Shown piece by piece: positions 44,550 to 63,268 of a stretch of 64,000 bases of DNA. Position 1 is the stretch's first letter; the number at the start of each line of letters is the position of its first letter. The DNA is taken from NCBI GenBank assembly GCA_013204645.1, contig JABMSE010000112.1, forward strand, positions 4-64,003, written 5' to 3'. Below the pieces are notes generated by a model, which did not search any database, was not told where the DNA came from, and worked only from the letters and a program-made list of their open reading frames with translations. This stretch comes from Candidatus Saganbacteria bacterium (GTDB lineage Bacteria > Margulisbacteria > WOR-1 > O2-12-FULL-45-9). Made by a program: the position numbers and the translations under genes.

Positions 44550-45518
44550 CTATGCCAAAACAAGCTTCTTCCACCACTCCTGGTTGTTATAATACCAGCG
44601 AATTGTTTGGGAAAGGCCCTCCTTGAGTTGCGTTGTGGGTGCCCAGCCCAATTTTTTTATTTTCGAACAATCAAGCGCATATCTTCTATCGTGGCCTAGG
44701 CGATCCTTAACATATTTTATTAAATCTTTCGGCTTACCCAGTTCATCTAAAATCATTCGGGTTATAGCTATATTTTCTTCTTCGTTGTCTGCTCCGATAT
44801 TATAGATCTCCCCTACCACCCCTTTTCGTAAAACTAAATCAATGGCCTCACAATTATCCATAACATACAGCCAATCCCGCACGTTTTTACCATCGCCCTA
44901 CAAAGGCAATTTCTTATCCTGCAAGGCATTAGTTATAAAGAGGGGGATGATCTTTTCGGGATACTGTAAAGGCCCATAATTATTAGAAGAACGGGTGATA
45001 ATGGCTGGTAAATTGTAGGTCTTAAAATAAGCACGAACCAGGAGATCTCCTCCTGCCTTGGAGGCTGAATAAGGGGAATTGGGAGACAAATTCGATTCCT
45101 CTGTGAAAGAGCCTTTTTCAATGCTACCATACACTTCATCGGTTGAGATGTGGATATAACGGCCAATATTATTCTTTTTAACAGCCTCAAGCAATATATG
45201 CGTGCCAAAAACATCCGTTTGCACAAAAGAGCCCGCAGATACAATTGAGCGGTCAACATGCGTTTCAGCAGCAAAATTGACGATGGCATCGATTTTAGGC
45301 AACAAACTCAAGGCTTTGTCAACGGCACCTGAATCAGAAATGTCACCCTTAAAAAACCTATAGCGTGGCTCCTTTTCTAGGTCGGAAAGATTAGAAAGAT
45401 TGCCGGCATAGGTTAAATTGTCAAAATTGAGTATTTCATCTTCGGGATAGTTAGAAAGAATATAGTGGATAAAATTGCTGCCAATAAATCCGGCACCACC
45501 AGTAACAAGAAGCTTCAC
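44550..45518 (-). pseudogene. rfbB: dTDP-glucose 4,6-dehydratase interrupted by an in-frame TAG
   Basis: The N-terminal ORF (44898..45518) and the C-terminal ORF (44550..44882) are in the same frame. The only break is a TAG at 44898-44900, replacing the conserved Tyr of the ...LP(I/L)YGDG(K)NVRDWLYV motif. This is a one-nucleotide change, TAT to TAG. Confidence 0.7.
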
Positions 45519-50642: not shown

Positions 50643-51119
50643 CTAATCACGATCCTCATGTTTAAAGCGCTCGGTTGCAATTTCATCCATAAACTTCGTC
50701 TCCAGATCTAACATTAACTTGTTAAATTCCCCAAGTTTTCTCTCGCGATGCTTTTCGATTATTTTCTTATCCTTCATGGAAGCAATTAATTGGGCTCGCT
50801 GTTCCTCAAGTTTCTTGCTTGCCTCAATTACCTTTTCCACCTGTTTATCGAGATCATCCTTTAGGACTTCGAGATGTGCTTTTCTTCTTAAAACCTTAGT
50901 GAAGTCTGAAATAGGACTTTTTTTTCTGAAAACTTGGCGTAGGTCTTCTTCTTTTCCCTTTTTTTCCGTATCAATTCGGCCTTCTTCTTCTTTTTCGCTA
51001 AGATAGGTCCTTTGCTTATCGGCAAATTTTTCCTGTTCTTTTTTCTCTTTGATGGCTCGAACTTTTAACACAGATTCAAGATCGTATTCAAATTTCTTAC
51101 CCGGCTTAGGCTTTGCCAT
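50643..51119 (-). CDS. fliJ: Flagellar export chaperone FliJ-like coiled-coil protein
   Basis: ~158-aa charged coiled-coil protein immediately downstream of fliI. The N-terminus FEYDLESVLKVRAIKEKKEQEKF fits the FliJ pattern. Confidence 0.5.
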   Translation of the reverse strand: MAKPKPGKKFEYDLESVLKVRAIKEKKEQEKFADKQRTYLSEKEEEGRIDTEKKGKEEDLRQVFRKKSPISDFTKVLRRKAHLEVLKDDLDKQVEKVIEASKKLEEQRAQLIASMKDKKIIEKHRERKLGEFNKLMLDLETKFMDEIATERFKHEDRD

Positions 51120-51131
51120 GATCGTCCCCTT

Positions 51132-52442
51132 TTAAGAAAAGATACCAATTAAGCGCTTGACCGTTTCCTCAAATTTAACTTGTTCAAAGGTCCCTTGTTT
51201 TAAGAAAGTATTTACCTGATCAATTTTTGATAGTGCGTAGTCAATTTTGGGATTACTCCCCTTAACATAGGCCCCGATATTGATTAAATCTTCAGCTTCA
51301 GCATAACGGGCTAAAACTTCCCTTAGTTTTCCGGCTGCTTGCTTCTGTTCGTCAGATACAAGATTGGTCATTAGCCGCGATACACTGGGCGGAACATCAA
51401 TAGCTGGATAATGATTGCGTGCCGCAAGATCGCGCGACAGCATAATGTGTCCATCTAAAATTGAGCGGGAATGGTCTGAAATAGGCTCGTTAAAATCATC
51501 CCCTTCAACCAAAATGGTATAAAAAGCTGTAATCGTACCAACTGTAGAGGTCCCAGAACGCTCCATAAGCCTGGGCAAAAGCGCAAAAACTGAAGGGGTA
51601 TACCCTTTAGTGGTGGGCGGCTCCCCAGCCGCTAGCCCTATTTCGCGCTGGGCCATGGCAAAACGAGTAACCGAGTCCATCATCAAAATCACCGTCTTAT
51701 TTTGATTGCGAAAGTATTCTGCAATAGCTGTGGCAACAAAAGCCGCCTTCAGACGAATCAAGGGTGGTTGATCAGAAGTTGCTGCAACCACAACCGATTT
51801 TTTCAAACCTTCTTCTCCTAAGGATTCTTCAATAAAATCACGAACCTCCCTGCCCCGCTCCCCAACCAAGGCAATCACGTTAACGTCTGCTTCAGCATTT
51901 CTAGCAACCATTCCCATTATGGTTGATTTTCCCACCCCAGAGCCAGCAAAAATTCCAATGCGCTGTCCTTGACCTAGGGTCAACATGCCGTCAATGGCGC
52001 GAATCCCAACCCTTATAACCTCGGTTATACGCGGACGTTTAACCGGATCGGGGGGGTCGGCATCCAAGGGACAATCAACTCCGCCGGAAATAGCACCCTT
52101 ACCATCTACTGGCTGCCCCAAACCATTAAGGACGCGGCCCAAAACATCCTCGCTTACTCTTACCATAAGAGGCTTACCTGCTGCTACTACTTGTGAACCA
52201 GGAGAAATCCCAGAAGTGGAACCAAGGGGCATAAGGAGTACACGCTTTTCGCGAAACCCAACCACCTCAGCTAAAGATTCTCGATTTTCTTTTTCAAGAC
52301 GGATAGAACAAATATCCCCCACCGAAACCCCCCCCACCTGGGCCTCAATAATCAATCCCACCACCTGCACTACTTTTCCAATAACCCGTACTAGGTCGGC
52401 TCTTTCAATTGCTTTATGATATTTTTCAAAATCAATTTCCAT
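51132..52442 (-). CDS. fliI: Flagellum-specific ATPase FliI
   Basis: Walker A GIFAGSGVGKST; the conserved FliI/T3SS ATPase core is present throughout. Confidence 0.85.
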   Translation of the reverse strand: MEIDFEKYHKAIERADLVRVIGKVVQVVGLIIEAQVGGVSVGDICSIRLEKENRESLAEVVGFREKRVLLMPLGSTSGISPGSQVVAAGKPLMVRVSEDVLGRVLNGLGQPVDGKGAISGGVDCPLDADPPDPVKRPRITEVIRVGIRAIDGMLTLGQGQRIGIFAGSGVGKSTIMGMVARNAEADVNVIALVGERGREVRDFIEESLGEEGLKKSVVVAATSDQPPLIRLKAAFVATAIAEYFRNQNKTVILMMDSVTRFAMAQREIGLAAGEPPTTKGYTPSVFALLPRLMERSGTSTVGTITAFYTILVEGDDFNEPISDHSRSILDGHIMLSRDLAARNHYPAIDVPPSVSRLMTNLVSDEQKQAAGKLREVLARYAEAEDLINIGAYVKGSNPKIDYALSKIDQVNTFLKQGTFEQVKFEETVKRLIGIFS

Positions 52443-52448
52443 TTTTTT

Positions 52449-53129
52449 TTAGGACGTGGCTTCCTCAGAAGATATCTTATTGAGGGATTCTTCAATAGAT
52501 TGTATTTTAGTAGAAATCTTGGCATCCACAAAGCCGAGATTAGTTTCGATTAAACATCCACCGGGCTCAATGTTAGGGTCTTCGATCACAGAGAAACTTT
52601 TAACCCCATCTAACATTCCAGCCAAACGATCCTTATAACGCTTTAAATACTCTGCATCCTCGCGATTAACTTTAACAATTATCTGCTCTCGATCCGAAAC
52701 CCGAGAAATAGCCTCGGCAACAATGTTTAAGCAAACATCACGATGCAGAGATACTTCAGAACGAATGACTTGTTCGGCAACTTTTATGGCCAATCTTAAT
52801 ATCTCTTGTTCCGAATCTTTGATAATATTTTTACGCTCCTTAACTGCTTGATTTAGTGTTTCAACGGCTTCCTCAATTTGAGAAGCAGCTTCAGATCGTC
52901 CAGCTTCGCGGCCTGCCTGTTTAGCCTCTTCTCTTATCGAGGAAGCTTCATTCATTGCGGCATCAATAATTTTTTGGGCTTCGTTTTTGGCGCGTGGCAA
53001 ATCGTTTTTTAAAATCGCTTTGCCTATTTTTGGTTTGATAAGTGCTGGCCTCAAAAGAGGAGCCACCGCCTGTCGTTCTATAACTAGCGTTCCCTTATCT
53101 TCAATTTGATCTTTCTTAATTAACGCCAT
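52449..53129 (-). CDS. fliH: Flagellar assembly protein FliH
   Basis: Charged coiled-coil N-terminus and a C-terminal ...PGGCLIETNLGFVDAKISTKIQSIEESL characteristic of FliH. Confidence 0.6.
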   Translation of the reverse strand: MALIKKDQIEDKGTLVIERQAVAPLLRPALIKPKIGKAILKNDLPRAKNEAQKIIDAAMNEASSIREEAKQAGREAGRSEAASQIEEAVETLNQAVKERKNIIKDSEQEILRLAIKVAEQVIRSEVSLHRDVCLNIVAEAISRVSDREQIIVKVNREDAEYLKRYKDRLAGMLDGVKSFSVIEDPNIEPGGCLIETNLGFVDAKISTKIQSIEESLNKISSEEATS

Positions 53130-53131
53130 AA

Positions 53132-53620
53132 CTAAAATATTTTCCCTGCGAATTGTGCTTTCAACTTATTTCCAAGTTTAGCATGCAAAGGGTTTTTATA
53201 AAGTCCTGAAAGAAGCTCAGAAACCACGGCCCGCTCCCGCGGAAGAGAAAGTAGAGCCTCTTCTTTTTGTTGCTCGGTAAAAAGTGATAAAAGAAAAGCA
53301 ATCATCTGCGGCCGCTCATAAACCAGCATAGTATAAGATTTTTTTGGCACTGGAGGGGGTGCCGGGGGCACTTCCCTTTGTTCCAGCTGAGGTGGAACTT
53401 CGCCTGCGTTAGGAAGGGCCAAAAAGCCCTTAAATTCATCCAAAACTTCCGAAAGGGCTTGTGGAGAGGGAGAAGGTAGGTGATTAATGCCTGAAGCAAT
53501 TAGATCGGCTAACTCATCCGGCAAATAACGCAACACCCGGGCCGAGGTATCGGTACCTAAGATTGACAAAAATATCGTGGCCTTTTCTCTTCCAGATAAA
53601 GGCATTACTCTGACAACCAT
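53132..53620 (-). CDS. fliG: FliG-like protein, N-terminal domain only (truncated rotor/switch protein)
   Basis: LSGREKATIFLSILGTDTSARVLRYLPDELADLIASGINHL...ALSEVLDEFKGF matches FliG_N. This is followed by a short segment resembling the start of the middle domain. The ORF is only 162 aa and ends with TAG, 3 nt before the fliH ATG. No C-terminal torque domain is encoded. Confidence 0.55.
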   Translation of the reverse strand: MVVRVMPLSGREKATIFLSILGTDTSARVLRYLPDELADLIASGINHLPSPSPQALSEVLDEFKGFLALPNAGEVPPQLEQREVPPAPPPVPKKSYTMLVYERPQMIAFLLSLFTEQQKEEALLSLPRERAVVSELLSGLYKNPLHAKLGNKLKAQFAGKIF

Positions 53621-55083
53621 TTCCTGAGCATGTCTGCCACGCGCTCAGGATTCCTCTCAGCTGCGTTTTTGATATTTGAAAGCGTTGACAGCTTAGCGCG
53701 ATTTACCGCGGGTTTATCCATCTCATTATCCTCTTCTTCCATTCTCGGTAGTTTATCAACCCGTGATTTTTTCCTTACACTTTTAAAAACCAGGATAATA
53801 ATAAGTATTAGGACTAAGACAATAGACGCAATAATTATATTTCTTATAAGGGGTGAGACAATAAGGGGAAGTTTTTCGGGCTCCGCAGCTAAGGGAAGAA
53901 CTTTTTCCACCTCTATCTGGATAACTTCGGGGGGTGGCGTGGCCAGATGAAAAGGAACCTTCTGCAATACAATCTGGTCACCTCGACTGCGATCATAGCC
54001 AATCGCCGCCGCCACAGCCTTATAGGTAGATTGTTTTAGTTGTGGGGTTAGATCAACACGATTATCGACAAGAATTACAGCTGACAAAGCTTGGATGCTT
54101 AATTCCTCCTTATCCACACCTTGGCCGGTAGCTTTAGTTTCTAACTCTACATTTACTTTTATAACTGCACTGTTAGGGGGATAAAAACGATTTAAAATTT
54201 CTTGAGATTTCCCTGAGAGATTATTTTCTAGTTCCTTTTTTGCCTTTACCACCAGAAGTATCTTTTCCTCAGCGCTGAGAGGCCTTGCAACTGCCGCTTC
54301 GCCTGAAAGGGCGGCGGCCTCAAAAGAGACTTCAACTTTTATTTCTTCCGCACCAAAAACAGCGGTCGAAAGCTCAGAAAGAGAAATCACCTCATCTGAA
54401 GAAATAATTTCAGCAGTGACCAGCATGGGTTCGGCGGTTAAAATTCTGCCCGTACTATCAACTATCGTAACATTTTGCGGCCGAAGGTTTTCTACACTAC
54501 TAGCCACAAGATGGACAATGCCATTTATTTTAGCTGGAGCTATGTAAGTCCCCGGCATTAGGCGCAGAAAGACGGAAGCGGTAACCGGAGCAACGTTTTC
54601 TGCAAAAAGCGGGGTCTCAGGCATAACAATCTGCACACGGGCACTTTGGACTGCTTGTATACTACCAATGGTTCGTGAGAGCTCGCCGGAAATAGCACGA
54701 ATAAGTTGGATACGTCGGTCAAAAGCCGTGGCACCCAGCTTTGTTTCATCAAAAATTTCCCATCCCACAACCCCACCCGCCGGCAGATTTTTTTCCGCCA
54801 AACCCAAACGCGCATCATCTGCCACCTGTTTAGGAACAGCAACTGCCCGCCCCTCATCCTTAATCTCGTAAGGAATCCCTAATTCTTTAAGACGCGCGAT
54901 TACATTAGCCGCATCCTTCAACTCCAGATTGGAATAAATTACAGTATAGCCGGTTTGGCTGCGCGAAAACGGGGAACAACCACGAAAAAGAAAGAACAAT
55001 AGCGCAATAACAATAACGAACCCGACGCCAGCCAGAAGAAGGATGCGTCGAATATCAAAACCTGCTGGAGCTGCTTCTGCCAT
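53605..55083 (-). CDS. fliF: Flagellar M-ring protein FliF
   Basis: N-terminal TM helix, then GYTVIYSNLELKDAANVIARLKELGIPYEI..., a second TM helix near the C-terminus and a FliG-binding tail. Confidence 0.8.
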   Translation of the reverse strand: MAEAAPAGFDIRRILLLAGVGFVIVIALLFFLFRGCSPFSRSQTGYTVIYSNLELKDAANVIARLKELGIPYEIKDEGRAVAVPKQVADDARLGLAEKNLPAGGVVGWEIFDETKLGATAFDRRIQLIRAISGELSRTIGSIQAVQSARVQIVMPETPLFAENVAPVTASVFLRLMPGTYIAPAKINGIVHLVASSVENLRPQNVTIVDSTGRILTAEPMLVTAEIISSDEVISLSELSTAVFGAEEIKVEVSFEAAALSGEAAVARPLSAEEKILLVVKAKKELENNLSGKSQEILNRFYPPNSAVIKVNVELETKATGQGVDKEELSIQALSAVILVDNRVDLTPQLKQSTYKAVAAAIGYDRSRGDQIVLQKVPFHLATPPPEVIQIEVEKVLPLAAEPEKLPLIVSPLIRNIIIASIVLVLILIIILVFKSVRKKSRVDKLPRMEEEDNEMDKPAVNRAKLSTLSNIKNAAERNPERVADMLRKWLSE

Positions 55084-55093
55084 GTTCTACTCC

Positions 55094-55456
55094 TTAAATC
55101 TGCATTTGAATAACTTCTTTAAAAGCTGTCACGGCTGAATTTACCGTGGTAACCGCTAATTGAACCATAATACTCATTTTAGACTGAGCCACCATTACAT
55201 CAGACAATTCTGCTTGGCCGTGTAAATATTTATCGATAAGTTGATTGGCATAAAACTCGGACTGACTAATTCCATTCAATGAATCAATAGCTTTGGATAG
55301 GATATCATCAAAAGGATTACGACTGAGTTTCATTGGGCTGGTGGGTTCTGCTGCCAAGTTAGGAGACGCAACCTCTGGGGCCTGGGCTAAGAAATCATCC
55401 CCTAGAATCTGGGCTAGACTTAAGTCTGCATTAATCGGGTTAATTTGTTCTACCAT
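55094..55456 (-). CDS. fliE: Flagellar hook-basal body protein FliE
   Basis: 120 aa. The C-terminus ...VQLAVTTVNSAVTAFKEVIQMQI fits the FliE signature. Confidence 0.65.
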   Translation of the reverse strand: MVEQINPINADLSLAQILGDDFLAQAPEVASPNLAAEPTSPMKLSRNPFDDILSKAIDSLNGISQSEFYANQLIDKYLHGQAELSDVMVAQSKMSIMVQLAVTTVNSAVTAFKEVIQMQI

Positions 55457-55511
55457 CTTATAATTCTACCTTCATTAGCTTCCCGCGAATGAACTTCGCG
55501 GTTTCCAAAAT

Positions 55512-55949
55512 TTACGGTATTTGCAAAGTATCCTGCATCATTTTCTTTGTCGCATTAAAAGCCGTAATATTGGCCTCGTAAAGCCTTTGTGTGTAGACTA
55601 AGTCTACCATTTCTTCTGACAGATTCACATTGGGTAATTCCACAAACCCTTCAGCATCGGAATCCGGGTGACCCGGTTTATAAATTTTTTGCAAGGGTGT
55701 TGTATCCTCTACCACATCGACAACCTCTACTCCAGCCACACCTCTTGCAAGCCTGTTTTGGGCTATCGCGAGCTCATCGTTAAAGCTAACTGGTTTTTCA
55801 CCCAAAACTGCAATACGACGACGGTAAGGACCACCATAAACGGTGTAGGTAGTATTAACATTAGCTATATTTGAAGCAATTAATTCTAACGTGATACGTT
55901 GCGCAGCAAGACCAGAAACACTGATATCCATAGCTTGATTTAATCCCAT
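55512..55949 (-). CDS. flgC: Flagellar basal-body rod protein FlgC
   Basis: MGLNQAMDISVSGLAAQRITLELIASNIANVNTT... plus a C-terminal ...VDLVYTQRLYEANITAF... rod-protein heptads. Confidence 0.8.
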   Translation of the reverse strand: MGLNQAMDISVSGLAAQRITLELIASNIANVNTTYTVYGGPYRRRIAVLGEKPVSFNDELAIAQNRLARGVAGVEVVDVVEDTTPLQKIYKPGHPDSDAEGFVELPNVNLSEEMVDLVYTQRLYEANITAFNATKKMMQDTLQIP

Positions 55950-55956
55950 GCCTTAA

Positions 55957-56262
55957 CTACCTCCTTCCCTGACTGGTTATATTCTTTAAGACATTTATTT
56001 TGCTGGATAAAAGCTTGATATAACTAGAATATTTTATAGAGTTATCTGCCAGGGCTGCCAGTTCGTCCTCTAAAATAACATCTTTTTTGTCCGACCTCTC
56101 TACCGCACGCATCAGATGCTCATCAAAAGTAAGCGCCGTAAAACCTGGAGTTTTTGCGTTTGCGATATTATGCGAAATCACTTCCTGCCAACGAGTGGAA
56201 ATATCCATGGCCCTTTCAAGCTGATTAAACTGCGCATCAAACATTTCAATCGGTCTAGACAT
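55957..56262 (-). CDS. flgB: Flagellar basal-body rod protein FlgB
   Basis: ERAMDISTRWQEVISHNIANAKTPGF N-terminal rod motif. ~100 aa. Confidence 0.65.
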   Translation of the reverse strand: MSRPIEMFDAQFNQLERAMDISTRWQEVISHNIANAKTPGFTALTFDEHLMRAVERSDKKDVILEDELAALADNSIKYSSYIKLLSSKINVLKNITSQGRR

Positions 56263-56983
56263 GTTTAAGCTTCCCTTGAATTACACTTATAACCTTTGAA
56301 AGCACCCGGCACACCTTGGGGCGCGATAAATCTAGTCGTTTTGCAATCGTTTTCTGATTCAGGCCATTATGATAAAATAGTTTAGCAACTTTTCTTTGCA
56401 GAGGAGGAAGCCCCTCAACAATAACCTTTATCCTATCTTTGAGTTCAGCAAATTCAAATTCAGCGGCGGGGGTAGATTCACTGGGAACCGGAGCCTCAAC
56501 CCCAATGCCTGCCATCTCCTCAACCGAAAGAAGATACATAAGAGCTGAAGCCGAAACAATTTTCTTAATTCTTTTAATAGCTTGTTTAAATTCGCCCTCG
56601 GTTAACTCCTTTTTCTCTAAAAGTTCATCATCCTTTTTTTCCTTTTTGGAGACTACCATAGAGGAGAATCCCCTCTTTGCCAAATCCCTCACCATAACCT
56701 GAACCCGATAAGGAACTGGATTGTAATTTTTAAAGCCATCCAGAATTTCCCCCCTAATGCGATAAGAAGCATAAGTTTCAAACTTAACCCCACGATTTGG
56801 GTCAAAATTCTCCCAGGCCTTCATGAGCCCTACTGTTCCATCCGAAACCAAATCATCATATTCAATATTAGGCGGCAACCCTTTACCCGAAACCATAGAA
56901 GCAATGGAATGGACCAGCGGCATATAGGCCTCAATTGATTTTGGCAAAGGTTTATTCTGTATTTTTTTCTTTAGTTTATTCAT
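56255..56983 (-). CDS. fliA: Sigma-70 family sigma factor, FliA (sigma-28)-like
   Basis: Region 2 (DDLVSDGTVGLMKAWENFDPNRGVKFETYASYRIRGEILD) and a region 4 HTH (QKTIAKRLDLSRPKVCRVLSKVI). ~240 aa. Embedded in the flagellar operon. Confidence 0.65.
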   Translation of the reverse strand: MNKLKKKIQNKPLPKSIEAYMPLVHSIASMVSGKGLPPNIEYDDLVSDGTVGLMKAWENFDPNRGVKFETYASYRIRGEILDGFKNYNPVPYRVQVMVRDLAKRGFSSMVVSKKEKKDDELLEKKELTEGEFKQAIKRIKKIVSASALMYLLSVEEMAGIGVEAPVPSESTPAAEFEFAELKDRIKVIVEGLPPLQRKVAKLFYHNGLNQKTIAKRLDLSRPKVCRVLSKVISVIQGKLKHV

Positions 56984-57312
56984 TTGACTTCAACTGCTTT
57001 AGAAAAAGTTGGAAAAACATTTTCAGCCGAAAAGGTCTTACTTTTTACCAATTCCAAAGCAAGTTTATTCACAAACATATCAGACCCAAAACGCGAACTC
57101 AAAAAATCATTATCTTTGTCATCTCCACTAAAATTAGGCGTCTTAAAGGCCTGCTTAAAAACCTCCCGATAAAAAATCACCATGAATTCATCTTTAATGC
57201 TTTCACGGGCAGCCTGCGTTTGTGCGTGGCTAGCTGCCACAATAATCTCATTCATTTTTCTGGTATCAGGAGAAGATCCCATTTGGCTTAGCGCAGTAAT
57301 TTCCGAAACCAT
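56980..57312 (-). CDS. flgJ: Rod-binding (FlgJ N-terminal-like) protein
   Basis: DEFMVIFYREVFKQAFK resembles the Rod-binding domain consensus (FEamflqqmLksmr). 110 aa. Sits in the expected position directly after flgI. Confidence 0.45.
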   Translation of the reverse strand: MVSEITALSQMGSSPDTRKMNEIIVAASHAQTQAARESIKDEFMVIFYREVFKQAFKTPNFSGDDKDNDFLSSRFGSDMFVNKLALELVKSKTFSAENVFPTFSKAVEVK

Positions 57313-58571
57313 TAAATCACCTCAAGTTCTGCCTTTATGGCACCAGCTCTTTTCATGGCCTGCAAAATAGCAATTAGGTCCTTGGGGGTAGCCCCAATCG
57401 TGTTTAACCCGCGCACTAGTGTTGATAGGGTTGCTCCCCCCTCAACCAAGGTTAACTTTCCTTCGGTTTTCTTTAATTGGGCATTTGAACGTGCAAGGTA
57501 ATAGCTTTCATCCAAAACCGAATCTTGCGTGTACCCTTCCGAAAAAAGAGAAACATTCCCAATGCTTACATCGATTCCCGCATAAGAGACCGCTACCGGA
57601 GAAATCTTCACATTTTCACCAATTACAATCGTTCCAGTACGCTCATTAACCACAATTTTGGCAACTACATCTGGGACAATAGTCAAACTCTCAATACGTG
57701 AGACAAGCTCAACAATATCATCATCATCGGAAATTGGAACGGTAATCGTAGCCGCATCGAGAGCCAAAGCTTCCAAGCCAATCCTTCTAATTGAGGAAAC
57801 CAAGCGACTTGCCGTAGTAAAATCTGGCTCATCCAAAACAATGGTAAGCAACTCCTTATTAGTGATTGAAACCGGCACTTATTTTTCAACCAAGGCCCCC
57901 CCCGGAATTCGGCCAACCGTGGTCTGACCATGTCTAACATATGGAATAGAAGGGGTGGTGGATTCCAGGCCAATTAGGAGGCTACCCTGGGCCACTGCAT
58001 AAACCTCCTCATTAACCCCTTGAAGGGGTGTAATCAATAGGGTTCCGCCTTGAAGAGAAGTTGCATCCCCCATAGACGAAACAGTAACATCCATTTTTTG
58101 CCCTGGCTTTACAAAAGATGGAAGGGTTGCCGTAACCATAACCGCTGCTACATTTCTTGATTTAAAATCAACTGACTGGGGTACAACTCCCATTCTGGAC
58201 AACAAATTGGTCAAGGCCTGCTGGGTAAAACCGGTTTGACTTCGGTCCCCGGTGTTTTTTAGGCCAACCACCAAACCAAATCCCATTAACTGATTATCCC
58301 GTGCTTCTAAGACATGAGCTATATCTTTTACTCTAACGGAGGGGGATTGAGCAGATGCAAAATACTCCGCCTGCGGCGGACAAACTACAAAGTACAAAAT
58401 ACAACCCAAAAACAAAATTTTCTTAATAACTTGTGCCTTGTGCCCTCGTCCTGAGGTCTGGCCCAACATGACTCGGTCCGAAGGATTTGTGCCTTGTAAC
58501 ATTATTTGCTTCCTCCTAAAAGATCCAATTAAAAAGCCGAGTAATCCAACCCGGGGACTCGGTGTCCGCAA
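57312..58571 (-). pseudogene. flgI: Flagellar P-ring protein FlgI interrupted by an in-frame TAA
   Basis: The N-terminal part (57879..58571) and the C-terminal part (57312..57878) are collinear with full-length FlgI and lie in the same frame. A single TAA at 57879-57881 sits where E. coli FlgI has Glu (VERELP; here VEK*VP). Confidence 0.7.
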
Positions 58572-59238
58572 TCACGCCAGTCCCTCTTACGGAAACCTCA
58601 GCATTAGCCACCTGATAGGAATAAACTGTATTCTCGCCACTTAGATCTTTAGGTCGAACAATTCCGCTTACTGTAATCTCTTGCATTTCATCATTTACCT
58701 CGACCTTATGTCGTCCACGAATTTCAAGATTACCATTGGGAAAGACATTTGTAACCCAGGCCGCCACCCGAGCAGAAACATCATTGCTGCGGGTTGTCTC
58801 CCCATCCCCAGTAAATTTATTCGAGACTTGTCCCGTTACCTGGTTGGAGGCTCCAATTATAGGAGCCAAGCGCTGAATAGTATGGGCAAACTGTAGCCCC
58901 AAATCATCCCTGACATTCGTTTTAGTCCTAGCTTTATTCTTAGCACTGGTGTTCTCCATGATAATAACATTTACAATATCTCCCACGCGGTAAGCCTTTT
59001 GGGCGTTGTAAGGTGAAGCACTATTATCATTCCAGACAGAATCTGCTCTCACAGGCAAGATAGAAAAATAAGCTACAAGAGACAAGATACAAAAACCAAA
59101 TAATAACCAATAACCAATATTCAACATCCAAATTGAAGGCCTTTGAAATTTGTTTTTTGGAATTTGCAATTTATTTGAATCTTGTACCTTGTATCTTGTA
59201 TCTTGCATCTTGTGTCTTGTATCTTGTGCGTTTATCAT
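58516..59238 (-). CDS. flgH: Flagellar L-ring protein FlgH
   Basis: ...YRVGDIVNVIIMENTSAKNKAR...GNLEIRGRHKVEVNDEMQEITVSGIVRPKDL... is a canonical FlgH core. The likely true start is the Met at ~59127 (MLNIGYWLLFGFCILSLVAYF signal peptide). The longer ORF reaching 59238 reads through the heptamer array. Confidence 0.75.
   Translation of the reverse strand: MINAQDTRHKMQDTRYKVQDSNKLQIPKNKFQRPSIWMLNIGYWLLFGFCILSLVAYFSILPVRADSVWNDNSASPYNAQKAYRVGDIVNVIIMENTSAKNKARTKTNVRDDLGLQFAHTIQRLAPIIGASNQVTGQVSNKFTGDGETTRSNDVSARVAAWVTNVFPNGNLEIRGRHKVEVNDEMQEITVSGIVRPKDLSGENTVYSYQVANAEVSVRGTGVIADTESPGWITRLFNWIF
59181..59229. repeat. Seven tandem copies of heptanucleotide CTTGTAT (degenerate: CTTGTAC/CTTGCAT/CTTGTGT/CTTGTGC)
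   Basis: Seven contiguous 7-nt units read directly from the sequence. The array lies between the flgA stop (59235) and the flgH signal-peptide Met (~59127). Confidence 0.85.
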
Positions 59239-60041
59239 TTTAACACCACCTCAACTTCTCCTGGGGCAATCAGAATTCCCTCCAGGGTTTTTTTTGTCTC
59301 TTTTTTTCTTACCGTTATCTTGCCACCTATATAGCCATCCATTAAGGCTATCCCGCTCGTTTTCAGCAACAAATTAGGCGCCCTTACGAAAATCGTAACT
59401 GAATCCCCACGCCGGGCTTGCGGAACTTCTTTTATCATCCAAGAAAACACGGTACTATTTTGGGGGATGGTTGTTTTTGCTTCTCGGCCAGAAACTTGAT
59501 CAAAAGAAGTGAAATATTTCTGCGGTAACATTGCAATATCTCTTTTTTCTAAAGCTAGATCGTCTCTTTTTATCTCCTGGCCACGTTTAATTTTTTTCGC
59601 CGCCGCCACAATACCTAAAAAAACCTCAACCTTTGCTCGAATAAAAATGGTGCTTTTATCCTTTCCATCAAAAACCTCGATGGGAAAAATAACATTGCCC
59701 ACCGGCCTAAAATCTTTATAAGTTTCTTTTATTTTTAAATCAGCATTAGGAGACAGACCACGCAAGATATCAAATGCCTTATCTGCCATCCGATAAGTGA
59801 CGGAAATATCCAAACCCGTAAGCTTCGGATCATAGGAAATGACCAAGCCTTCTACGAGTTTGGTAACCTTCTGTTCAGGATTATCCAAGGCAGCAGCTGG
59901 AATCGATAAAATACAAGATACAAGACACAAGATACAATAACCAAATAATATCCGATATCCAATATCCAACATCCAAATTGGAGATTTTTGAAATTTGATT
60001 TTTGAAACTCGTAATTTATTTATATTTTGTATCTTGGTCAT
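59235..60041 (-). CDS. flgA: Flagellar basal-body P-ring formation chaperone FlgA
   Basis: C-terminal SAF/FlgA domain (...GDSVTIFVRAPNLLLKTSGIALMDGYIGGKITVRKK...). The likely start is the Met of MLDIGYRILFGYCILCLVSCILSIPAAA, at ~59972. Confidence 0.65.
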   Translation of the reverse strand: MTKIQNINKLRVSKIKFQKSPIWMLDIGYRILFGYCILCLVSCILSIPAAALDNPEQKVTKLVEGLVISYDPKLTGLDISVTYRMADKAFDILRGLSPNADLKIKETYKDFRPVGNVIFPIEVFDGKDKSTIFIRAKVEVFLGIVAAAKKIKRGQEIKRDDLALEKRDIAMLPQKYFTSFDQVSGREAKTTIPQNSTVFSWMIKEVPQARRGDSVTIFVRAPNLLLKTSGIALMDGYIGGKITVRKKETKKTLEGILIAPGEVEVVLK

Positions 60042-60053
60042 TGTTTCTTTTTC

Positions 60054-60851
60054 TTACTGTTTCATTGCCTCCAAGCTTCTAAGCATACCCTCATAGGATT
60101 GCACAGCCTTGGTCACCGTATCAAAAACTCTTTGCACCATTACCATGCGCATCATTTCAGAGATAACATCAACATTTGATTGCTCTAGAGCATATTGCCG
60201 AATGGTACCAAACCCATCTTCTCCCGGAATACCTACCCATGGTTCACCGGATGCTTCACTTTCCTGGTAAAGATTCTGTCCAATCGTGGTTAACCCAGCG
60301 GAATTAGTGAAACGAACTAAGTCGATTTGTCCGATCTCGGAATAACTAGTTTCATTATTTATCGCCGCATAAACTAAGCCATCAGACTGGATAAGAACCG
60401 AGGTGGTACCCTCGGGAAAAATAATTTGTGGTTCAAGCAAATGGCCATTTGGATCACAGAGGTTGCCATCATTGTCAATGTGCAAATTGCCAGCCCGACC
60501 ATAAGCTAGGGTTGCGTCCGGCATGCCAAACTGTAAAAAGCCATCGCCTTCAATGGCAACATCCAAGGGATTAGAAGTTATATCAATTGAACCTTGCGTA
60601 AAATCAGCCGGGGTAGCAGCTACACGAACTCCAGTTCCATATTCAACATTAACTGGAGGAGCTTCCATTCCGCTCATAGATTCATAGAGCATATCCTTAA
60701 AACTTTTTTCAATGTAAAAAAGGCTCTCCATCTCAGTACGAGATTTTTTAAAAGCAATTGTCTGGGCATTGGCCAAATTGTTGGTAATGGTCAAGATCTC
60801 ATCTTCCATCGCAGAAAGCCCTGTAGCTGCAACATATAAAGGTTGAAACAT
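60054..60851 (-). CDS. flgG: Flagellar basal-body rod protein FlgG
   Basis: MFQPLYVAATGLSAMEDEILTITNNLANAQTIAFKK... plus a C-terminal ...ALEQSNVDVISEMMRMVMVQRVFD... Confidence 0.8.
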   Translation of the reverse strand: MFQPLYVAATGLSAMEDEILTITNNLANAQTIAFKKSRTEMESLFYIEKSFKDMLYESMSGMEAPPVNVEYGTGVRVAATPADFTQGSIDITSNPLDVAIEGDGFLQFGMPDATLAYGRAGNLHIDNDGNLCDPNGHLLEPQIIFPEGTTSVLIQSDGLVYAAINNETSYSEIGQIDLVRFTNSAGLTTIGQNLYQESEASGEPWVGIPGEDGFGTIRQYALEQSNVDVISEMMRMVMVQRVFDTVTKAVQSYEGMLRSLEAMKQ

Positions 60852-60869
60852 TTTACTTACACCTCCAAA

Positions 60870-61604
60870 TTATTTGGTGGAGCCCATTTCCATGGCGCGT
60901 GACAATTCAGTATCCCGGGTTTGAATAATTTTCGTGTTCAAGGTATAAATACGCTCAAGATAAATCATTTCCATCATCTGGTCAATAATATTTACATTAG
61001 ATGCCTCAACGTAGCCCTGAATAACCCGGGGCCTTACAACCTCGTTCAAAACGGCATAGGGATCTCTAAGCTTAAAAATGCTTCCATTCAAAGACTCGAA
61101 TGCTTCCGGATTTTCTGGATTAACTACTAAAATCGTATCAACGGTTACCCCATCCACTTTTATTTCACCTTCCTGCGTAAACTCAACCGAGGATCCAGGA
61201 GGTACAATAATGGGTCCCGCTTGCCCCATCACAGGGAAATTACCGGAAACAGAGAGCAATCTACCCTCCTTATCCAACTGAAACCTCCCATCCCTAGTAT
61301 AACCCTCTCCCCAATCCCCCATTACAACAAAAAAACCAGAGGATCCCAAAGCAAGATCGAGCTGGCTATCAGTTTTAATTAACGCGCCCTGTATAGTATT
61401 ATAAAAAGTACCTTCAACCTGGGGTTTCACAGAAGATAAACGCTGGGTTGCAGCCTCAAGCTCAAGAGGAAATCCACGAATCATTACGTCGGATTTCTTG
61501 AAGCCGGGCACTTCAGAACCAACCATATTATCCATAAGTTTCCTTACTTTTTGATCGGCACTCTCCAGCCCGGCGGTACCAATCTCTAAAATGCGGTCGG
61601 TCAT
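60870..61604 (-). CDS. flgF: Flagellar basal-body rod protein FlgF (FlgG paralog)
   Basis: Rod-protein N- and C-terminal heptads (...IQGYVEASNVNIIDQMMEMIYLERIY...). 244 aa. Immediately upstream of flgG. Confidence 0.7.
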   Translation of the reverse strand: MTDRILEIGTAGLESADQKVRKLMDNMVGSEVPGFKKSDVMIRGFPLELEAATQRLSSVKPQVEGTFYNTIQGALIKTDSQLDLALGSSGFFVVMGDWGEGYTRDGRFQLDKEGRLLSVSGNFPVMGQAGPIIVPPGSSVEFTQEGEIKVDGVTVDTILVVNPENPEAFESLNGSIFKLRDPYAVLNEVVRPRVIQGYVEASNVNIIDQMMEMIYLERIYTLNTKIIQTRDTELSRAMEMGSTK

Positions 61605-61652: not shown

Positions 61653-61982
61653 TTAGATCCCTCTCTTCTTCCTTTCCTCTTCCTTCATCCTCCCCACAAC
61701 TTGTTCTCTCTTTTCCGCCATGCGGTCAAGTTTGTAAACAAAGAAAAGAACCTCTGCAACTAAGGTGTAAAGCTCGGGTGGGATTTCCGTATCTAATTCT
61801 AATTTAGTAAGAAGCTTTGCCAGCTCTGGATCTTCGTAGAGGGGGATTTTGTTATCATCTGCAATACGTAAAATCTCATCCGCCACAGGCCCACGTCCAG
61901 TGGCAATCACCAGCGGTGCTTTATCCTGATCAACATCATAACGCAATGCAACTGCAGCTTTTTTGTCGTTTGCTTGTGCCAT
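61653..61982 (-). CDS. FlhB C-terminal-domain-like protein (EscU/YscU/FlhB family, YlqH-like)
   Basis: AVALRYDVDQDKAPLVIATGRGPVADEILRIADDNKIPLYEDPELAKLL...PPELYTLVAEVLFFVYKL matches the FlhB cytoplasmic domain, including the NPxH-region equivalent. 109 aa. Confidence 0.6.
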   Translation of the reverse strand: MAQANDKKAAVALRYDVDQDKAPLVIATGRGPVADEILRIADDNKIPLYEDPELAKLLTKLELDTEIPPELYTLVAEVLFFVYKLDRMAEKREQVVGRMKEEERKKRGI

Positions 61983-61987
61983 TTTAT

Positions 61988-63268
61988 TTACGCCTCAATA
62001 TCAATTTTCTTTAATAAGTCATCAAGCCCGGGAATCATGGGAATCAGATAAGGCCGTATATTACACATTGCCGGATCCACTTTTACCTGGTATCCCGTAA
62101 CCATAAAATTGCGCTCTGCTAATTTTTGCTGGAAGTCGCCAAACTCCTTGGCAATTAATCTGCGACCCTCTTTTCCGTAATTCTTTTCATTATAAACAAA
62201 AATAACATAGACTTTATTGTTTTTTACAATCATGGAAACAACCATTTTTCCCATGTTCTCGGTTTCCATGGACATGACCACTTGGGTATTTTTTGGATCA
62301 ACCGGTGAGTTTTTGCCCTCACCCTCCCGCTTAACCACTATTTCAAGATCCTTGGGAGGATCGGTCATCGTGTTTGGGATTTGATGATAAAGATAATTAA
62401 CTTCTGACCTGCCAGATTGTGAAAGGATGGATTGGGCAAGCAAGTTTTGCAAAACCCCGTCTAATTTTCCCTGAAGCTCGATAAGCGAGGAAGAAAGAGC
62501 TTGGGCAGCGGCACTATTTGCATTAGGGGTTTTGTTCTGAACGCCTGAAAGAAGTGCCTTGAGTGCCCGGACATCAGTAAGCAGATTTTCCCGGCTAATA
62601 GCTGACTTTTCAAAAGATCGTTTGGTTAAACTTTTAAATGTTTCATCTAATTGGGAAAGAAGCGCTCCTAATTGAGAAACCAGATTTGCATTCAATAAAC
62701 CTTTTGCCATCCCTAAGGCAGAGGTTAAATTCCCTGCTGCCTGCTGTAGAGCGATGAGCTGAGAAGCTACTCCTGGGTTTTTTGCAAAATATTGTCCGAG
62801 AACATTTACTGCCTGTGGAGAGTCAATCCCTTTCATTATGAGAAGAACAGCTGCTTCCTGCATAGCCTGGGACTTATTAGTACCTTGTAACATGTTCATG
62901 ATTTTAACCAGATTTGCACGGGAAAGTTCTAGCCCATTGCGCAACATGAGCGAAGATAATTTTGTAATAAAATTATTGGGTTCAATCTGCATATTTAACA
63001 GATGGGCACGGATATCCTCAACCGTTAGAGGCCGCGTAATAGATGGTGCAGGTTTTGGTGGAGCAGCTGGTGCTCCGGGCGCAGTCGGGGTGGTAGGAGC
63101 AACTTCTCCTGGCTTAGTCGGCGTTACGCGAGGCGGAACACCTCTCACGCCACCCATGGTTTGAGCAGTTTGAGCTGATTGAACCGGGGTTCCAGTTGGT
63201 TTACCAGTTGGCCAAATAGGCCTACTTTCGGGATGTATTCCCCCTGATCCTACGGGGACTTCCGCCAT
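61988..63268 (-). CDS. Putative flagellar hook-length control protein (FliK-like), Pro/Ala-rich N-terminus
   Basis: N-terminus is Pro/Thr/Ala-rich and low-complexity. The centre is Gln/Ser/Leu-rich. The C-terminal ~100 aa (LEIVVKREGEGKN...VVSMIVKNNKVYVIFVYNEKNYGKEGRRL) resemble the Flg_hook domain. Adjacent to the FlhB-C-like gene. Preceded by an AGGAGGG Shine-Dalgarno sequence. Confidence 0.35.
   Translation of the reverse strand: MAEVPVGSGGIHPESRPIWPTGKPTGTPVQSAQTAQTMGGVRGVPPRVTPTKPGEVAPTTPTAPGAPAAPPKPAPSITRPLTVEDIRAHLLNMQIEPNNFITKLSSLMLRNGLELSRANLVKIMNMLQGTNKSQAMQEAAVLLIMKGIDSPQAVNVLGQYFAKNPGVASQLIALQQAAGNLTSALGMAKGLLNANLVSQLGALLSQLDETFKSLTKRSFEKSAISRENLLTDVRALKALLSGVQNKTPNANSAAAQALSSSLIELQGKLDGVLQNLLAQSILSQSGRSEVNYLYHQIPNTMTDPPKDLEIVVKREGEGKNSPVDPKNTQVVMSMETENMGKMVVSMIVKNNKVYVIFVYNEKNYGKEGRRLIAKEFGDFQQKLAERNFMVTGYQVKVDPAMCNIRPYLIPMIPGLDDLLKKIDIEA

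What the first reader, a model, noticed from the sequence alone, without database searches (positions are those of the whole stretch)
53132..53620. FliG reduced to its FliF-binding N-terminal domain (162 aa); no torque-generating C-terminal domain encoded between fliF and fliH
The fliF-fliG-fliH spacing leaves no room for the ~330-aa FliG. The ORF ends at a TAG 3 nt before the fliH ATG, and fliF overlaps its start. The conserved FliG_N motif is present, but the ARM-M domain is partial and the C-terminal MotA-interacting domain is absent. A rotor lacking FliG-C cannot couple to stators. This could be a non-rotating secretion-only basal body, a split FliG with the C-terminal part encoded elsewhere, or gene decay (see the flgI stop).
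Basis: partly seen in the sequence, partly recalled or inferred. Interest (0 to 1): 0.6.

Follow-up and report, generated by a model that had tools for sequence, protein, structure and literature searches.

The report
Conserved FliG lacking its torque domain
The flagellar rotor protein FliG in this bacterium (candidate phylum Margulisbacteria, Saganbacteria/WOR-1 type) is a conserved half-size version that keeps the parts that dock onto the membrane ring and the cytoplasmic ring but lacks the part that receives torque from the motor. This points to a flagellum-like machine that probably does not rotate.

Summary
A 162-aa ORF (more likely 157 aa, starting at Met6) fills the whole gap between fliF and fliH, and it has no FliG C-terminal domain.

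It is not decay. More than 100 independent loci from Margulisbacteria (Saganbacteria/WOR-1, marine lineages, Riflemargulisbacteria) have the same fliF–fliG–fliH arrangement, with FliG of 148–195 aa. The gene is under purifying selection (dN/dS 0.27) and ends with any of the three stop codons.

It is more than the N-terminal domain. It consists of the first four helices of FliG_N (the FliF-binding part), a proline-rich linker that replaces the second half of FliG_N, and a complete middle domain with the EHPQ motif kept as ERPQ. It stops just before the Gly-Gly hinge.

No FliG_C was found in 1.54 Mb of fetched DNA. A published KO table lists no FliG, FliM, FliL, FlgK/L, FliD or FlhF/G in 26 Saganbacteria genomes, while the export gate, FliN, rod, L/P rings and hook are listed.

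Most likely this FliG is an adaptor between the MS ring and a cytoplasmic platform in a non-rotating, flagellum-derived basal body and hook. Whether motAB are present, and what the rest of this genome contains, could not be checked.

The flgI stop is a private point mutation and is unrelated.

The parts
53132..53620 (-). Short fliG. 162 aa from the first ATG; most likely 157 aa from Met6 (ATG 53603-53605). TAG stop at 53132-53134.
   Evidence: An identical 157-aa protein (P0001) is present in public data.
53423..53599 (-). FliG N-terminal four-helix unit (residues 8-66), the predicted FliF C-tail binding module.
   Evidence: Pfam FliG_N 8-64. The PDB profile aligns it to 5tdy_B residues 6-69. 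Foldseek versus 5tdy_D gives rmsd 1.7 A over 61 columns. It is the most conserved segment, dN/dS 0.15.
53336..53422 (-). Proline-rich, disordered, length-variable linker (residues 67-95) that replaces the second half of canonical FliG_N.
   Evidence: pLDDT below 50 for residues 69-85. Variable in A1 and A3. About 30-40 canonical residues are missing here. dN/dS 0.55.
53141..53335 (-). FliG middle (ARM_M) domain, residues 96-160, with the motif Y-E-R-P-Q (residues 101-105). It ends just before the canonical Gly-Gly hinge.
   Evidence: Foldseek versus the FliG_M chains of FliG-FliM complexes 4qrm_D, 4fq0_C and 3soh_B: rmsd 1.5-1.8 A. Alignment A2. pLDDT 82-90. dN/dS 0.30.
53605..55083 (-). fliF (MS ring, 492 aa). 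Its C-terminal tail ...NPERVADMLRKWLSE is the expected FliG_N docking peptide.
   Evidence: Pfam YscJ_FliF and YscJ_FliF_C. TIGR00206 at 200.9 bits. Tail motif nPe..A.lLk.WL.e is at least 90% conserved in 92 loci.
50643..53129 (-). fliH (52449-53129), fliI (51132-52442) and fliJ (50643-51119): the export ATPase complex.
   Evidence: Pfam FliH; ATP-synt_ab plus T3SS_ATPase_C; FliJ.
55094..56262 (-). fliE (55094-55456), flgC (55512-55949) and flgB (55957-56262): proximal rod.
   Evidence: FliE. Rod-protein Pfam hits for the syntenic genes of relatives. BLAST labels.
56255..56983 (-). FliA/WhiG-type sigma factor embedded in the cluster.
   Evidence: Pfam Sigma70_r2 and r4. TIGR02479 FliA_WhiG at 135 bits, below the cut-off but the best hit. 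Present in all loci.
56980..57312 (-). 110-aa ORF, possibly a FlgJ N-terminal (rod-cap) relative.
   Evidence: No Pfam hit. Only a weak NCBIfam match to the FlgJ-type model PRK12708, E 0.01. Conserved position in relatives.
57312..58571 (-). flgI (P ring), interrupted by an in-frame TAA at 57879-57881.
   Evidence: The two halves match FlgI profile positions 1-153 and 156-343. The TAA replaces a Glu conserved in 32 of 33 relatives. flgI is intact (355-480 aa) in the relatives' loci.
58516..61604 (-). flgH (58516-59238), flgA (59235-60041), flgG (60054-60851) and flgF-like (60870-61604): L ring, P-ring chaperone and distal rod.
   Evidence: Pfam FlgH, ChapFlgA, LlgE_F_G_D1 and Flg_bbr_C.
61653..63268 (-). 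FlhB C-terminal-domain-only protein (61653-61982) and a FliK-like protein (61988-63268).
   Evidence: Pfam Bac_export_2 positions 257-335; weak Flg_hook hit. TIGR00789 flhB_rel. A UniRef name for a relative reads 'hook-length control protein-like C-terminal domain'.

Best explanation
The ORF is a genuine, ancient, selectively maintained short FliG found across Margulisbacteria. It has three parts:
- the first ARM unit of FliG_N, which should still clamp the conserved C-terminal tail of FliF;
- a flexible proline-rich tether;
- a complete middle domain, the module that in canonical motors holds the FliM/FliN ring.

Everything from the Gly-Gly hinge onward is absent: helix_MC, ARM_C and the C-terminal bundle with the charged torque helix that contacts MotA.

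The protein can therefore work only as a 1:1 adaptor hanging a cytoplasmic FliN-type platform (and through it FliH/FliI/FliJ) under the MS ring. It cannot form the ARM_M/ARM_C-stacked FliG ring, and it cannot receive torque.

In the Saganbacteria/WOR-1 lineage, to which the window belongs, it is part of a reduced flagellar gene set. That set keeps the export gate, ATPase complex, MS ring, rod, L/P rings, hook and a FliA-like sigma factor. It lacks detectable FliM, FliL, hook-filament junction proteins, the filament cap and FlhF/G. The machine is most likely a non-rotating, flagellum-derived basal body and hook used for export or as a surface structure.

Shown: domain content, conservation, synteny, and absence of FliG_C near the locus.
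From the literature: the gene inventory of Saganbacteria.
Inferred: FliF and FliN-platform binding, non-rotation, and function.
For: Domain anatomy:
- Pfam FliG_N and FliG_M only.
- The profile aligns collinearly to Salmonella FliG residues 3-147 with an internal deletion.
- The AF2 model has two helical domains joined by a disordered linker.
- Foldseek matches 5tdy FliG_N (rmsd 1.7 A) and the FliG_M chains of FliG-FliM complexes (rmsd 1.5-1.8 A).
- Alignment with canonical FliGs shows termination just before the hinge.

Conservation:
- The best 120 hits listed (of 248 significant) are all 141-168 aa.
- About 57 clusters at 50% identity are short forms that rank ahead of the first full-length FliG.
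- 35 GTDB species and 67 metagenome loci share identical synteny.
- 102 complete ORFs measure 148-195 aa.
- TAA, TAG and TGA are all used as the stop.
- dN/dS is 0.27 overall: 0.15 in the N domain, 0.30 in the M domain.
- The FliF tail motif is conserved.

No FliG_C:
- The local HMM hits only the canonical control in 1.54 Mb.

Inventory:
- PMC6349859 Supplementary Data 2 gives, for 26 Saganbacteria genomes, no KO-level FliG, FliM, FliL, FlgK, FlgL, FliD, FlhF or FlhG.
- The same table lists FlhA/B, FliOPQR, FliN, FliF, the rod proteins, FlgH/I and FlgE as present.
Against: - The window covers only 64 kb of its genome. The second flagellar locus (flhA, fliPQR, fliN, flgE) was never seen directly.
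- motA and motB are not in the published table.
- The table's 'N/A' means no hit by the authors' KEGG-derived HMMs. The short FliG itself was missed that way, so a divergent FliM or a stand-alone FliG_C could also have been missed.
- The ERPQ motif is almost invariant, which implies a conserved partner of the FliM_M type. That sits uneasily with 'FliM absent'.
- Riflemargulisbacteria carry the same short FliG together with a full motility and chemotaxis gene set, so a short FliG does not by itself prove non-motility.
- L/P rings and a FliK-like protein are what a rotating flagellum needs too.
Confidence: 0.55

Rival explanations
1. The motor still rotates. The torque domain is supplied in trans by a second gene elsewhere in the genome, either a canonical FliG paralogue or a stand-alone FliG_MC/FliG_C. 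The short FliG is then an accessory or anchoring subunit, in the way spirochaetes carry FliG1 and FliG2.
For: - Riflemargulisbacteria have the same short FliG (P0163), yet the published table gives them 'reliable' K02410 calls and a full motility set.
- P0163 scores no better on a full-length FliG model (30.6 bits) than the Saganbacteria proteins that received no KO call (33.7-39.7 bits). A second, canonical FliG therefore probably exists in that class.
- The rest of the window's genome is unseen.
Against: - No K02410 call in any of 26 Saganbacteria genomes. Curated complete assemblies of this group exist, but whether they are among those 26 was not checked.
- No FliG_C in 1.54 Mb around 109 loci.
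- The canonical FliGs nearest to the short-family profile come from unrelated phyla.
- FliM, FliL and the filament genes are also uncalled in Saganbacteria.
Confidence: 0.17
2. The short-FliG cluster is one of two flagellar-type systems that were present in the Margulisbacteria ancestor. It is a specialised paralogous machine that coexists with a canonical flagellum in Riflemargulisbacteria and is the only one left in Saganbacteria. This refines the best explanation rather than contradicting it.
For: - The cluster (basal-body genes, FliA-like sigma, short FliG) keeps the same order from Riflemargulisbacteria to Saganbacteria, at only about 26% FliG identity.
- KO evidence suggests a separate canonical FliG plus FliM, FliL and FlhF/G in Riflemargulisbacteria only.
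Against: - Gene copy numbers (two fliF, two fliI, two flhA) were never seen.
- One flagellum with two FliG paralogues explains the same data with fewer genes.
Confidence: 0.2
3. The rotor is driven through a new interface: stators or another motor act on something other than FliG_C.
For: Only indirect. L/P rings (bushings), a hook and a FliK-like ruler are all kept under selection.
Against: There is no candidate protein and no precedent. FliL and FliM are uncalled. Nothing conserved and unexplained sits in the cluster apart from a 110-aa FlgJ-like ORF.
Confidence: 0.05
4. The ORF is a pseudogene, a truncation by mutation, or an assembly artefact of this contig.
For: Two private in-frame stops lie in the same 64 kb: flgI TAA, and rfbB TAG at 44898-44900.
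Against: - The same short length occurs in more than 100 loci.
- Purifying selection, three different stop codons and tight coupling to fliF and fliH all argue for a working gene.
- The identical protein is found on three contigs.
Confidence: 0.02

Closest known systems
Canonical FliG (TIGR00207; Pfam FliG_N + FliG_M + FliG_C), for example Salmonella, Thermotoga and Aquifex FliG (PDB 8umd, 5tdy, 4qrm, 3hjl)
   Same: - Encoded between fliF and fliH.
- The N-terminal helices match the FliF_C-binding module.
- The middle domain matches the FliM-binding ARM_M, with E-x-P-Q retained.
- It aligns collinearly to canonical residues about 1-190.
   Different: - About half the length.
- The second half of FliG_N is replaced by a Pro-rich linker.
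- No helix_MC, ARM_C or torque-helix domain.
- The Arg of the EHPQR motif is Glu/Asp in the short family.
- It scores 36.6 bits against a 226.7-bit cut-off.
Reduced flagellar basal bodies of non-motile bacteria: Buchnera aphidicola (PMC8109811) and the Lysobacter enzymogenes flagellar T3SS (PMC7688988)
   Same: Basal-body, rod, ring, hook and export genes are kept. Motility and filament functions appear lost. Export is the proposed function.
   Different: - Buchnera keeps a full-size FliG (38 kDa), FliM and FliN.
- In Lysobacter the authors found no fliG or fliM homologue with their queries and could not rule out divergent ones.
- Here the rotor protein itself has been remodelled, and the state is ancient, widespread across the phylum and found in free-living groundwater and sediment bacteria.
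Injectisome (non-flagellar T3SS) adaptor SctK between the inner-membrane ring and the SctQ pods; origin of the injectisome from the flagellum (Abby & Rocha 2012, PMC3459982)
   Same: Functional analogy only: a small adaptor that links the membrane ring to a FliN/SctQ-type sorting platform in a non-rotating T3SS that descends from a flagellum.
   Different: - No homology to SctK was tested or claimed.
- This system keeps flagellar rod, L/P-ring and hook genes, and no secretin or needle genes were seen in the cluster.
Paired FliG paralogues (FliG1/FliG2 of Borrelia and other spirochaetes; from my own knowledge)
   Same: In Riflemargulisbacteria there may be two FliG homologues with different roles in one cell.
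   Different: Both spirochaete paralogues are full length and have the C-terminal domain.

Membership tests
FliG (flagellar rotor/switch protein) | N-terminal domain that binds the FliF C-terminal tail (PF14842) | tested here: met
   - PF14842 at 40.1 bits (cut-off 25), but only profile positions 2-58 of 104.
- Matches 5tdy FliG_N at rmsd 1.7 A over 61 columns.
- The FliF tail motif is conserved.
- Binding itself was not tested.
FliG (flagellar rotor/switch protein) | Middle ARM_M domain with the EHPQR FliM-binding motif (PF14841) | tested here: inconclusive
   - PF14841 at 40.3 bits (cut-off 25).
- Fold matches the FliG_M chains of FliG-FliM complexes at 1.5-1.8 A.
- E102 is invariant in the A1 and A2 alignments and at least 90% conserved in A3; P104 and Q105 are invariant in A1.
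- The Arg-equivalent position is Glu/Asp.
FliG (flagellar rotor/switch protein) | C-terminal domain with the charged torque helix that contacts MotA (PF01706) | tested here: not met
   No PF01706 hit. The ORF ends before the hinge. The local FliG_C HMM finds nothing in the window or in 109 related loci.
FliG (flagellar rotor/switch protein) | Whole-protein equivalog score (TIGR00207 at or above 226.7 bits) | tested here: not met
   36.6 bits. Relatives score 21-40 bits; the canonical control P0177 scores 291 bits.
FliG (flagellar rotor/switch protein) | Gene position between fliF and fliH, translationally coupled | tested here: met
   TAATG overlap with fliF and a 2-nt gap to fliH. The order is the same in more than 100 loci.
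Reduced, non-motile flagellar T3SS/basal-body systems (Buchnera type) | Basal body, rod, rings and export ATPase retained | tested here: met
   fliE/F/H/I/J, flgB/C/F/G/A/H/I and a fliK-like gene are in the window.
Reduced, non-motile flagellar T3SS/basal-body systems (Buchnera type) | Loss of flagellin, stator (motAB) and switch genes genome-wide | not testable with these tools
   - Only 64 kb of this genome is available.
- The published KO table shows no FliM, FliL, FlgK/L or FliD in 26 Saganbacteria genomes.
- That table omits MotA/B, and FliC is uncalled in all 46 genomes, including the Riflemargulisbacteria that the paper describes as motile by polar flagella, so FliC is uninformative.
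Injectisome SctK-type adaptor | Sequence or structural homology to SctK/OrgA/YscK | not tested
   No SctK entry appeared among the Foldseek PDB matches. The comparison is functional analogy only.

The most novel reading that the evidence does not exclude
Margulisbacteria carry an ancient flagellum-derived machine whose rotor protein was cut down to a FliF-to-platform adaptor. It would be a naturally non-rotating 'flagellar' T3SS with rod, L/P rings and hook. It stands alone in Saganbacteria and perhaps sits alongside a canonical flagellum in Riflemargulisbacteria. That would make it an independent route from flagellum to secretion or appendage device, distinct from the injectisome and found in free-living bacteria.
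Probability: 0.45. Interest if true: 0.8.

Novelty: new variant of a known kind. Interest (0 to 1): 0.62.

Why it matters
FliG_C is the only known rotor surface that receives torque from the MotAB stators. A widespread lineage that keeps FliG but has deleted exactly that surface, under purifying selection, is a natural experiment on two questions: what the rest of FliG and the basal body do without rotation, and how flagella are converted into other machines (the injectisome question).

It also has practical consequences:
- These proteins fall below the FliG cut-off that NCBI's annotation uses (TIGR00207), and they got no K02410 call from the KEGG-derived HMMs used in the 2019 study.
- Named NCBI copies are annotated 'hypothetical protein'.
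- The 2019 study does not discuss Saganbacteria flagellar genes at all. [quoted passage not shown]
- The short protein is a compact, testable FliF_C/FliG_N/FliG_M module for structural work.

Tried and rejected
1. Stop-codon read-through or recoding of the fliG TAG. Rejected: read-through meets a TAA after four codons, and relatives end at the same point with TAA (30), TAG (4) or TGA (3).

2. A natural FliF–FliG fusion in L016. It is an artefact of an N-run in the scaffold.

3. Reaching the second flagellar locus (flhA, fliPQR, fliN, flgE, possible motAB/fliM).
   - Flanks of 109 loci were labelled by BLAST against the window's proteins.
   - Atypical neighbours were scanned with Pfam. Only housekeeping genes turned up.
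   - Walks upstream of L25 and fliK in a 1.58-Mb contig and in Riflemargulisbacteria found mreBCD/PBP2 and LPS genes.
   - All capped look-ups are now used.

4. The window itself. Positions 1-22.8 kb and 38-48 kb were scanned with Pfam and hold glycan-biosynthesis and housekeeping genes, with no flagellar genes. Positions 22.8-38 kb were not scanned with Pfam; they were covered only by the FliG_C HMM.

5. Pattern search with the very divergent alignment A3 failed because it had no conserved stretch. The profile search with A5 scored only 8 proteins.

6. The afdb50 fold library was not available.

7. Taxonomy of the canonical FliGs closest to the short family. They come from mixed phyla (Armatimonadota, Nitrospirota, Bacillota), so they give no hint of a Margulisbacteria canonical paralogue.

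8. The 351-aa protein and the HEAT-repeat protein next to the Riflemargulisbacteria cluster. Neither resembles FliM or FliG_C.

9. Literature. No paper in the library links FliG with Margulisbacteria, Saganbacteria or WOR-1.

Full report
**1. The observation**

The minus-strand ORF 53132..53620 encodes 162 aa. It lies between fliF (53605..55083) and fliH (52449..53129).
- It ends in TAG, two bases before the fliH ATG.
- fliF ends in TAA at 53605-53607. This overlaps the second in-frame ATG of the ORF (Met6, 53603-53605) as TAATG.
- Every relative starts at that position, and an identical 157-aa protein is in public data (P0001). The real product is therefore most likely 157 aa.
- Pfam finds FliG_N (40.1 bits) and FliG_M (40.3 bits) and no FliG_C.

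**2. Surroundings**

All of these genes are on the minus strand:
- L25, then a FliK-like gene and a FlhB-C-terminal-domain-only gene;
- flgF, flgG, flgA, flgH, flgI;
- a 110-aa ORF with a weak FlgJ-like match;
- a FliA/WhiG-type sigma factor;
- flgB, flgC, fliE, fliF, short fliG, fliH, fliI, fliJ;
- then L28 and recG.

The rest of the window that was scanned (1-22.8 kb and 38-48 kb) encodes glycan and nonulosonic-acid biosynthesis and housekeeping genes. Positions 22.8-38 kb were not scanned with Pfam. No fliM, fliN, motAB, flhA or fliPQR was found in the parts of the window that were scanned.

**3. What the protein is made of**

A profile of the family aligns collinearly to Salmonella FliG residues 3-147, with about 30 residues missing in the middle. 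It also aligns to the Thermotoga FliG_N chain of the FliF_C:FliG_N complex.

The AlphaFold model (mean pLDDT 73.5) shows:
- four helices at residues 10-64;
- a disordered stretch at residues 69-85;
- five helices at residues 97-156, with pLDDT 82-90.

Foldseek matches the first domain to 5tdy FliG_N (rmsd 1.7 A over 61 columns). It matches the second to the FliG_M chains of three FliG-FliM complexes (4qrm, 4fq0, 3soh; rmsd 1.5-1.8 A).

Aligned with canonical FliGs, the short proteins stop exactly where the Gly-Gly hinge and helix_MC begin. EHPQ is kept as ERPQ: invariant in close relatives, with E102 at least 90% conserved across the deepest alignment. The Arg of the EHPQR motif is Glu/Asp.

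So the protein is not 'the N-terminal domain'. It is half of FliG_N, a tether, and a full middle domain.

**4. It is conserved, not decayed**

- The 120 best database hits listed (of 248 significant) are all 141-168 aa. Where named, they come from Margulisbacteria, WOR-1 or Saganbacteria.
- In a library clustered at 50% identity, about 57 clusters of 140-190-aa proteins come before the first full-length FliG, at E 1.9e-11.
- 35 GTDB species genomes and 67 metagenome contigs show the same gene order. So do very divergent members at 26-37% identity.
- 102 complete ORFs are 148-195 aa, median 159.
- The stop is TAA, TAG or TGA in different genomes.
- Nei-Gojobori dN/dS over 127 pairs is 0.27 overall: 0.15 for the N domain, 0.55 for the linker, 0.30 for the M domain.
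- The FliF C-terminal tail (nPe..A.lLk.WL.e), which in known motors is the FliG_N docking peptide (my own knowledge of FliF), is at least 90% conserved in 92 loci.

**5. No torque domain nearby**

I built an HMM from the C-terminal 135 residues of 40 canonical FliGs and searched six-frame translations of the window and 109 loci (1.54 Mb). It hits only the canonical control locus L005.

**6. The rest of the flagellar inventory**

I could not reach the second flagellar locus with the capped tools.

Supplementary Data 2 of Matheus Carnevali et al. 2019 (PMC6349859) tabulates KO calls for 46 genomes.

| Group | Called | No KO-level call |
|---|---|---|
| 26 Saganbacteria genomes | FlhA, FlhB, FliH/I/J, FliO/P/Q/R, FliN/FliY, FliF, FliE, FlgB/C/G, FlgH/I/A, FlgE, FliA | FliG, FliM, FliL, FliK, FlgK, FlgL, FliD, FlgM/N, FlhF/G, FliW |
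| Riflemargulisbacteria | All of these, including FliM, plus FliG ('reliable' in 3 of 5 genomes, 'check_length' in the other 2) | — |

- MotA and MotB are not in the table.
- FliC is uncalled in all 46 genomes, so it is uninformative.
- The paper does not discuss this pattern. [quoted passage not shown]
- Caveat: 'N/A' means no hit by the authors' KEGG-derived HMMs. The short FliG itself was missed, so divergent proteins may have been missed too.

**7. Riflemargulisbacteria**

The same cluster, with a 181-aa FliG (P0163), is present in the Rifle aquifer genome GCA_003242895.1.

On the full-length FliG model TIGR00207:

| Protein | Bits |
|---|---|
| P0163 (Riflemargulisbacteria) | 30.6 |
| Saganbacteria short FliGs | 33.7-39.7 |
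| The window's protein | 36.6 |
| Canonical control P0177 | 291 |

The Saganbacteria proteins received no K02410 call. The 'reliable' FliG calls in Riflemargulisbacteria therefore most likely refer to a second, canonical FliG. This is an inference.

It suggests that the short-FliG cluster is old, pre-dating the split of these classes. It may coexist with canonical motor genes in one class and stand alone in the window's class.

**8. Mechanism proposed**

The short FliG binds the FliF tail through its N domain. Through a flexible tether it presents ARM_M, which holds a FliN-type platform for FliH/I/J docking.

Without ARM_C it cannot form the ARM_M/ARM_C-stacked ring. Without the torque helix it cannot couple to MotA. 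Both points rest on established knowledge of C-ring structures such as 8umd and 8wiw.

The machine is then a non-rotating basal body and hook, used for export or as a surface structure. Confidence is about 0.55. The main rival is a torque domain supplied in trans, at about 0.17.

**9. Side issue: the flgI stop**

- TAA at 57879-57881 replaces a Glu conserved in 32 of 33 relatives (GAA->TAA).
- A second private stop, TAG at 44898-44900, replaces the Tyr of the LPxYGDG motif of the dTDP-glucose 4,6-dehydratase.
- Both genes are intact in relatives.

These are either errors or private mutations of this contig. They say nothing about fliG.

**10. Novelty**

No paper in the library links FliG with this phylum. 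NCBI's FliG model (TIGR00207) scores the protein far below its cut-off, and named NCBI copies are labelled 'hypothetical protein'.

Reduced flagellar systems are known in Buchnera and Lysobacter. Buchnera keeps a full-size FliG.

I rate this a new variant of a known kind, with interest 0.62.

Noticed in passing
window 57879-57881 (within flgI, 57312-58571, minus strand): An in-frame TAA replaces a Glu that is conserved in 32 of 33 relatives (GAA->TAA). flgI is intact in the relatives' loci. This is a private nonsense change or a sequencing error in this contig.
   Followed up: yes
window 44898-44900 (rfbB-like dehydratase, 44550-45518, minus strand): A second private in-frame stop: TAG replaces the Tyr of the conserved LPxYGDG motif and splits a dTDP-glucose 4,6-dehydratase that is 337 aa and intact in relatives. 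Two nonsense substitutions in 64 kb suggest either base-call errors or a variant population.
   Followed up: partly
window 56255-56983 (minus strand): A FliA/WhiG-type sigma factor gene sits inside the basal-body cluster. Its end overlaps the start of flgB. It is conserved at this position in more than 100 loci. It scores below NCBIfam's FliA cut-off (135 versus 189.6 bits).
   Followed up: partly
window 61653-61982 and 61988-63268 (minus strand): A stand-alone FlhB C-terminal-domain protein (flhB_rel/YlqH-like) always follows a divergent FliK-like gene at the head of the cluster. The FliK-like protein has only a weak Flg_hook hit and gets no FliK KO call in Saganbacteria genomes.
   Followed up: partly
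window 1-47000, e.g. NeuB 19492-21003, O-antigen ligase 2918-4147, C-methyltransferases 8029-9282 and 15898-17082, radical SAM 14768-15865: A glycan-biosynthesis region of roughly 45 kb lies next to the flagellar cluster. It includes nonulosonic-acid synthase, several 4,6-dehydratase/epimerase paralogues, sugar C-methyltransferases and an aminoglycoside-N-acetyltransferase-like gene. ORFs 9305-10462 and 18908-19480 have no Pfam hit. Positions 22.8-38 kb were not scanned.
   Followed up: partly
L110 13631-15602 (Riflemargulisbacteria, QKMY01000031.1); also L109, L111, L112: In Riflemargulisbacteria the cluster is followed by a CheY-like receiver protein, a 174-aa HEAT-repeat protein and a 351-aa protein with no detectable family. 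An aspartate decarboxylase (panD) gene is inserted between flgA and flgH.
   Followed up: partly
L114 (Candidatus Termititenax persephonae, BGZO01000007.1) and L115: In Termititenax and a relative only fliK-like, flhB_rel and one rod gene remain together. The rest of the cluster is replaced by unrelated genes, so the system seems broken up in this ectosymbiotic lineage.
   Followed up: no
L116 20788-21248 (ENA k141_1273465): A further Margulisbacteria-like lineage has three rod-gene paralogues and a FliG called as 227 aa, longer than the 148-195 aa seen elsewhere. The locus ends before its C-terminus, so its domain content is unknown.
   Followed up: no
PMC6349859 Supplementary Data 2, compared with loci L008, L018, L035, L038: The published KO table lists FliG as absent from all 26 Saganbacteria genomes, although WOR-1/Saganbacteria genomes carry this short FliG. 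KO-level and equivalog-level annotation systematically misses it, so presence/absence tables for this phylum under-report divergent flagellar genes.
   Followed up: yes
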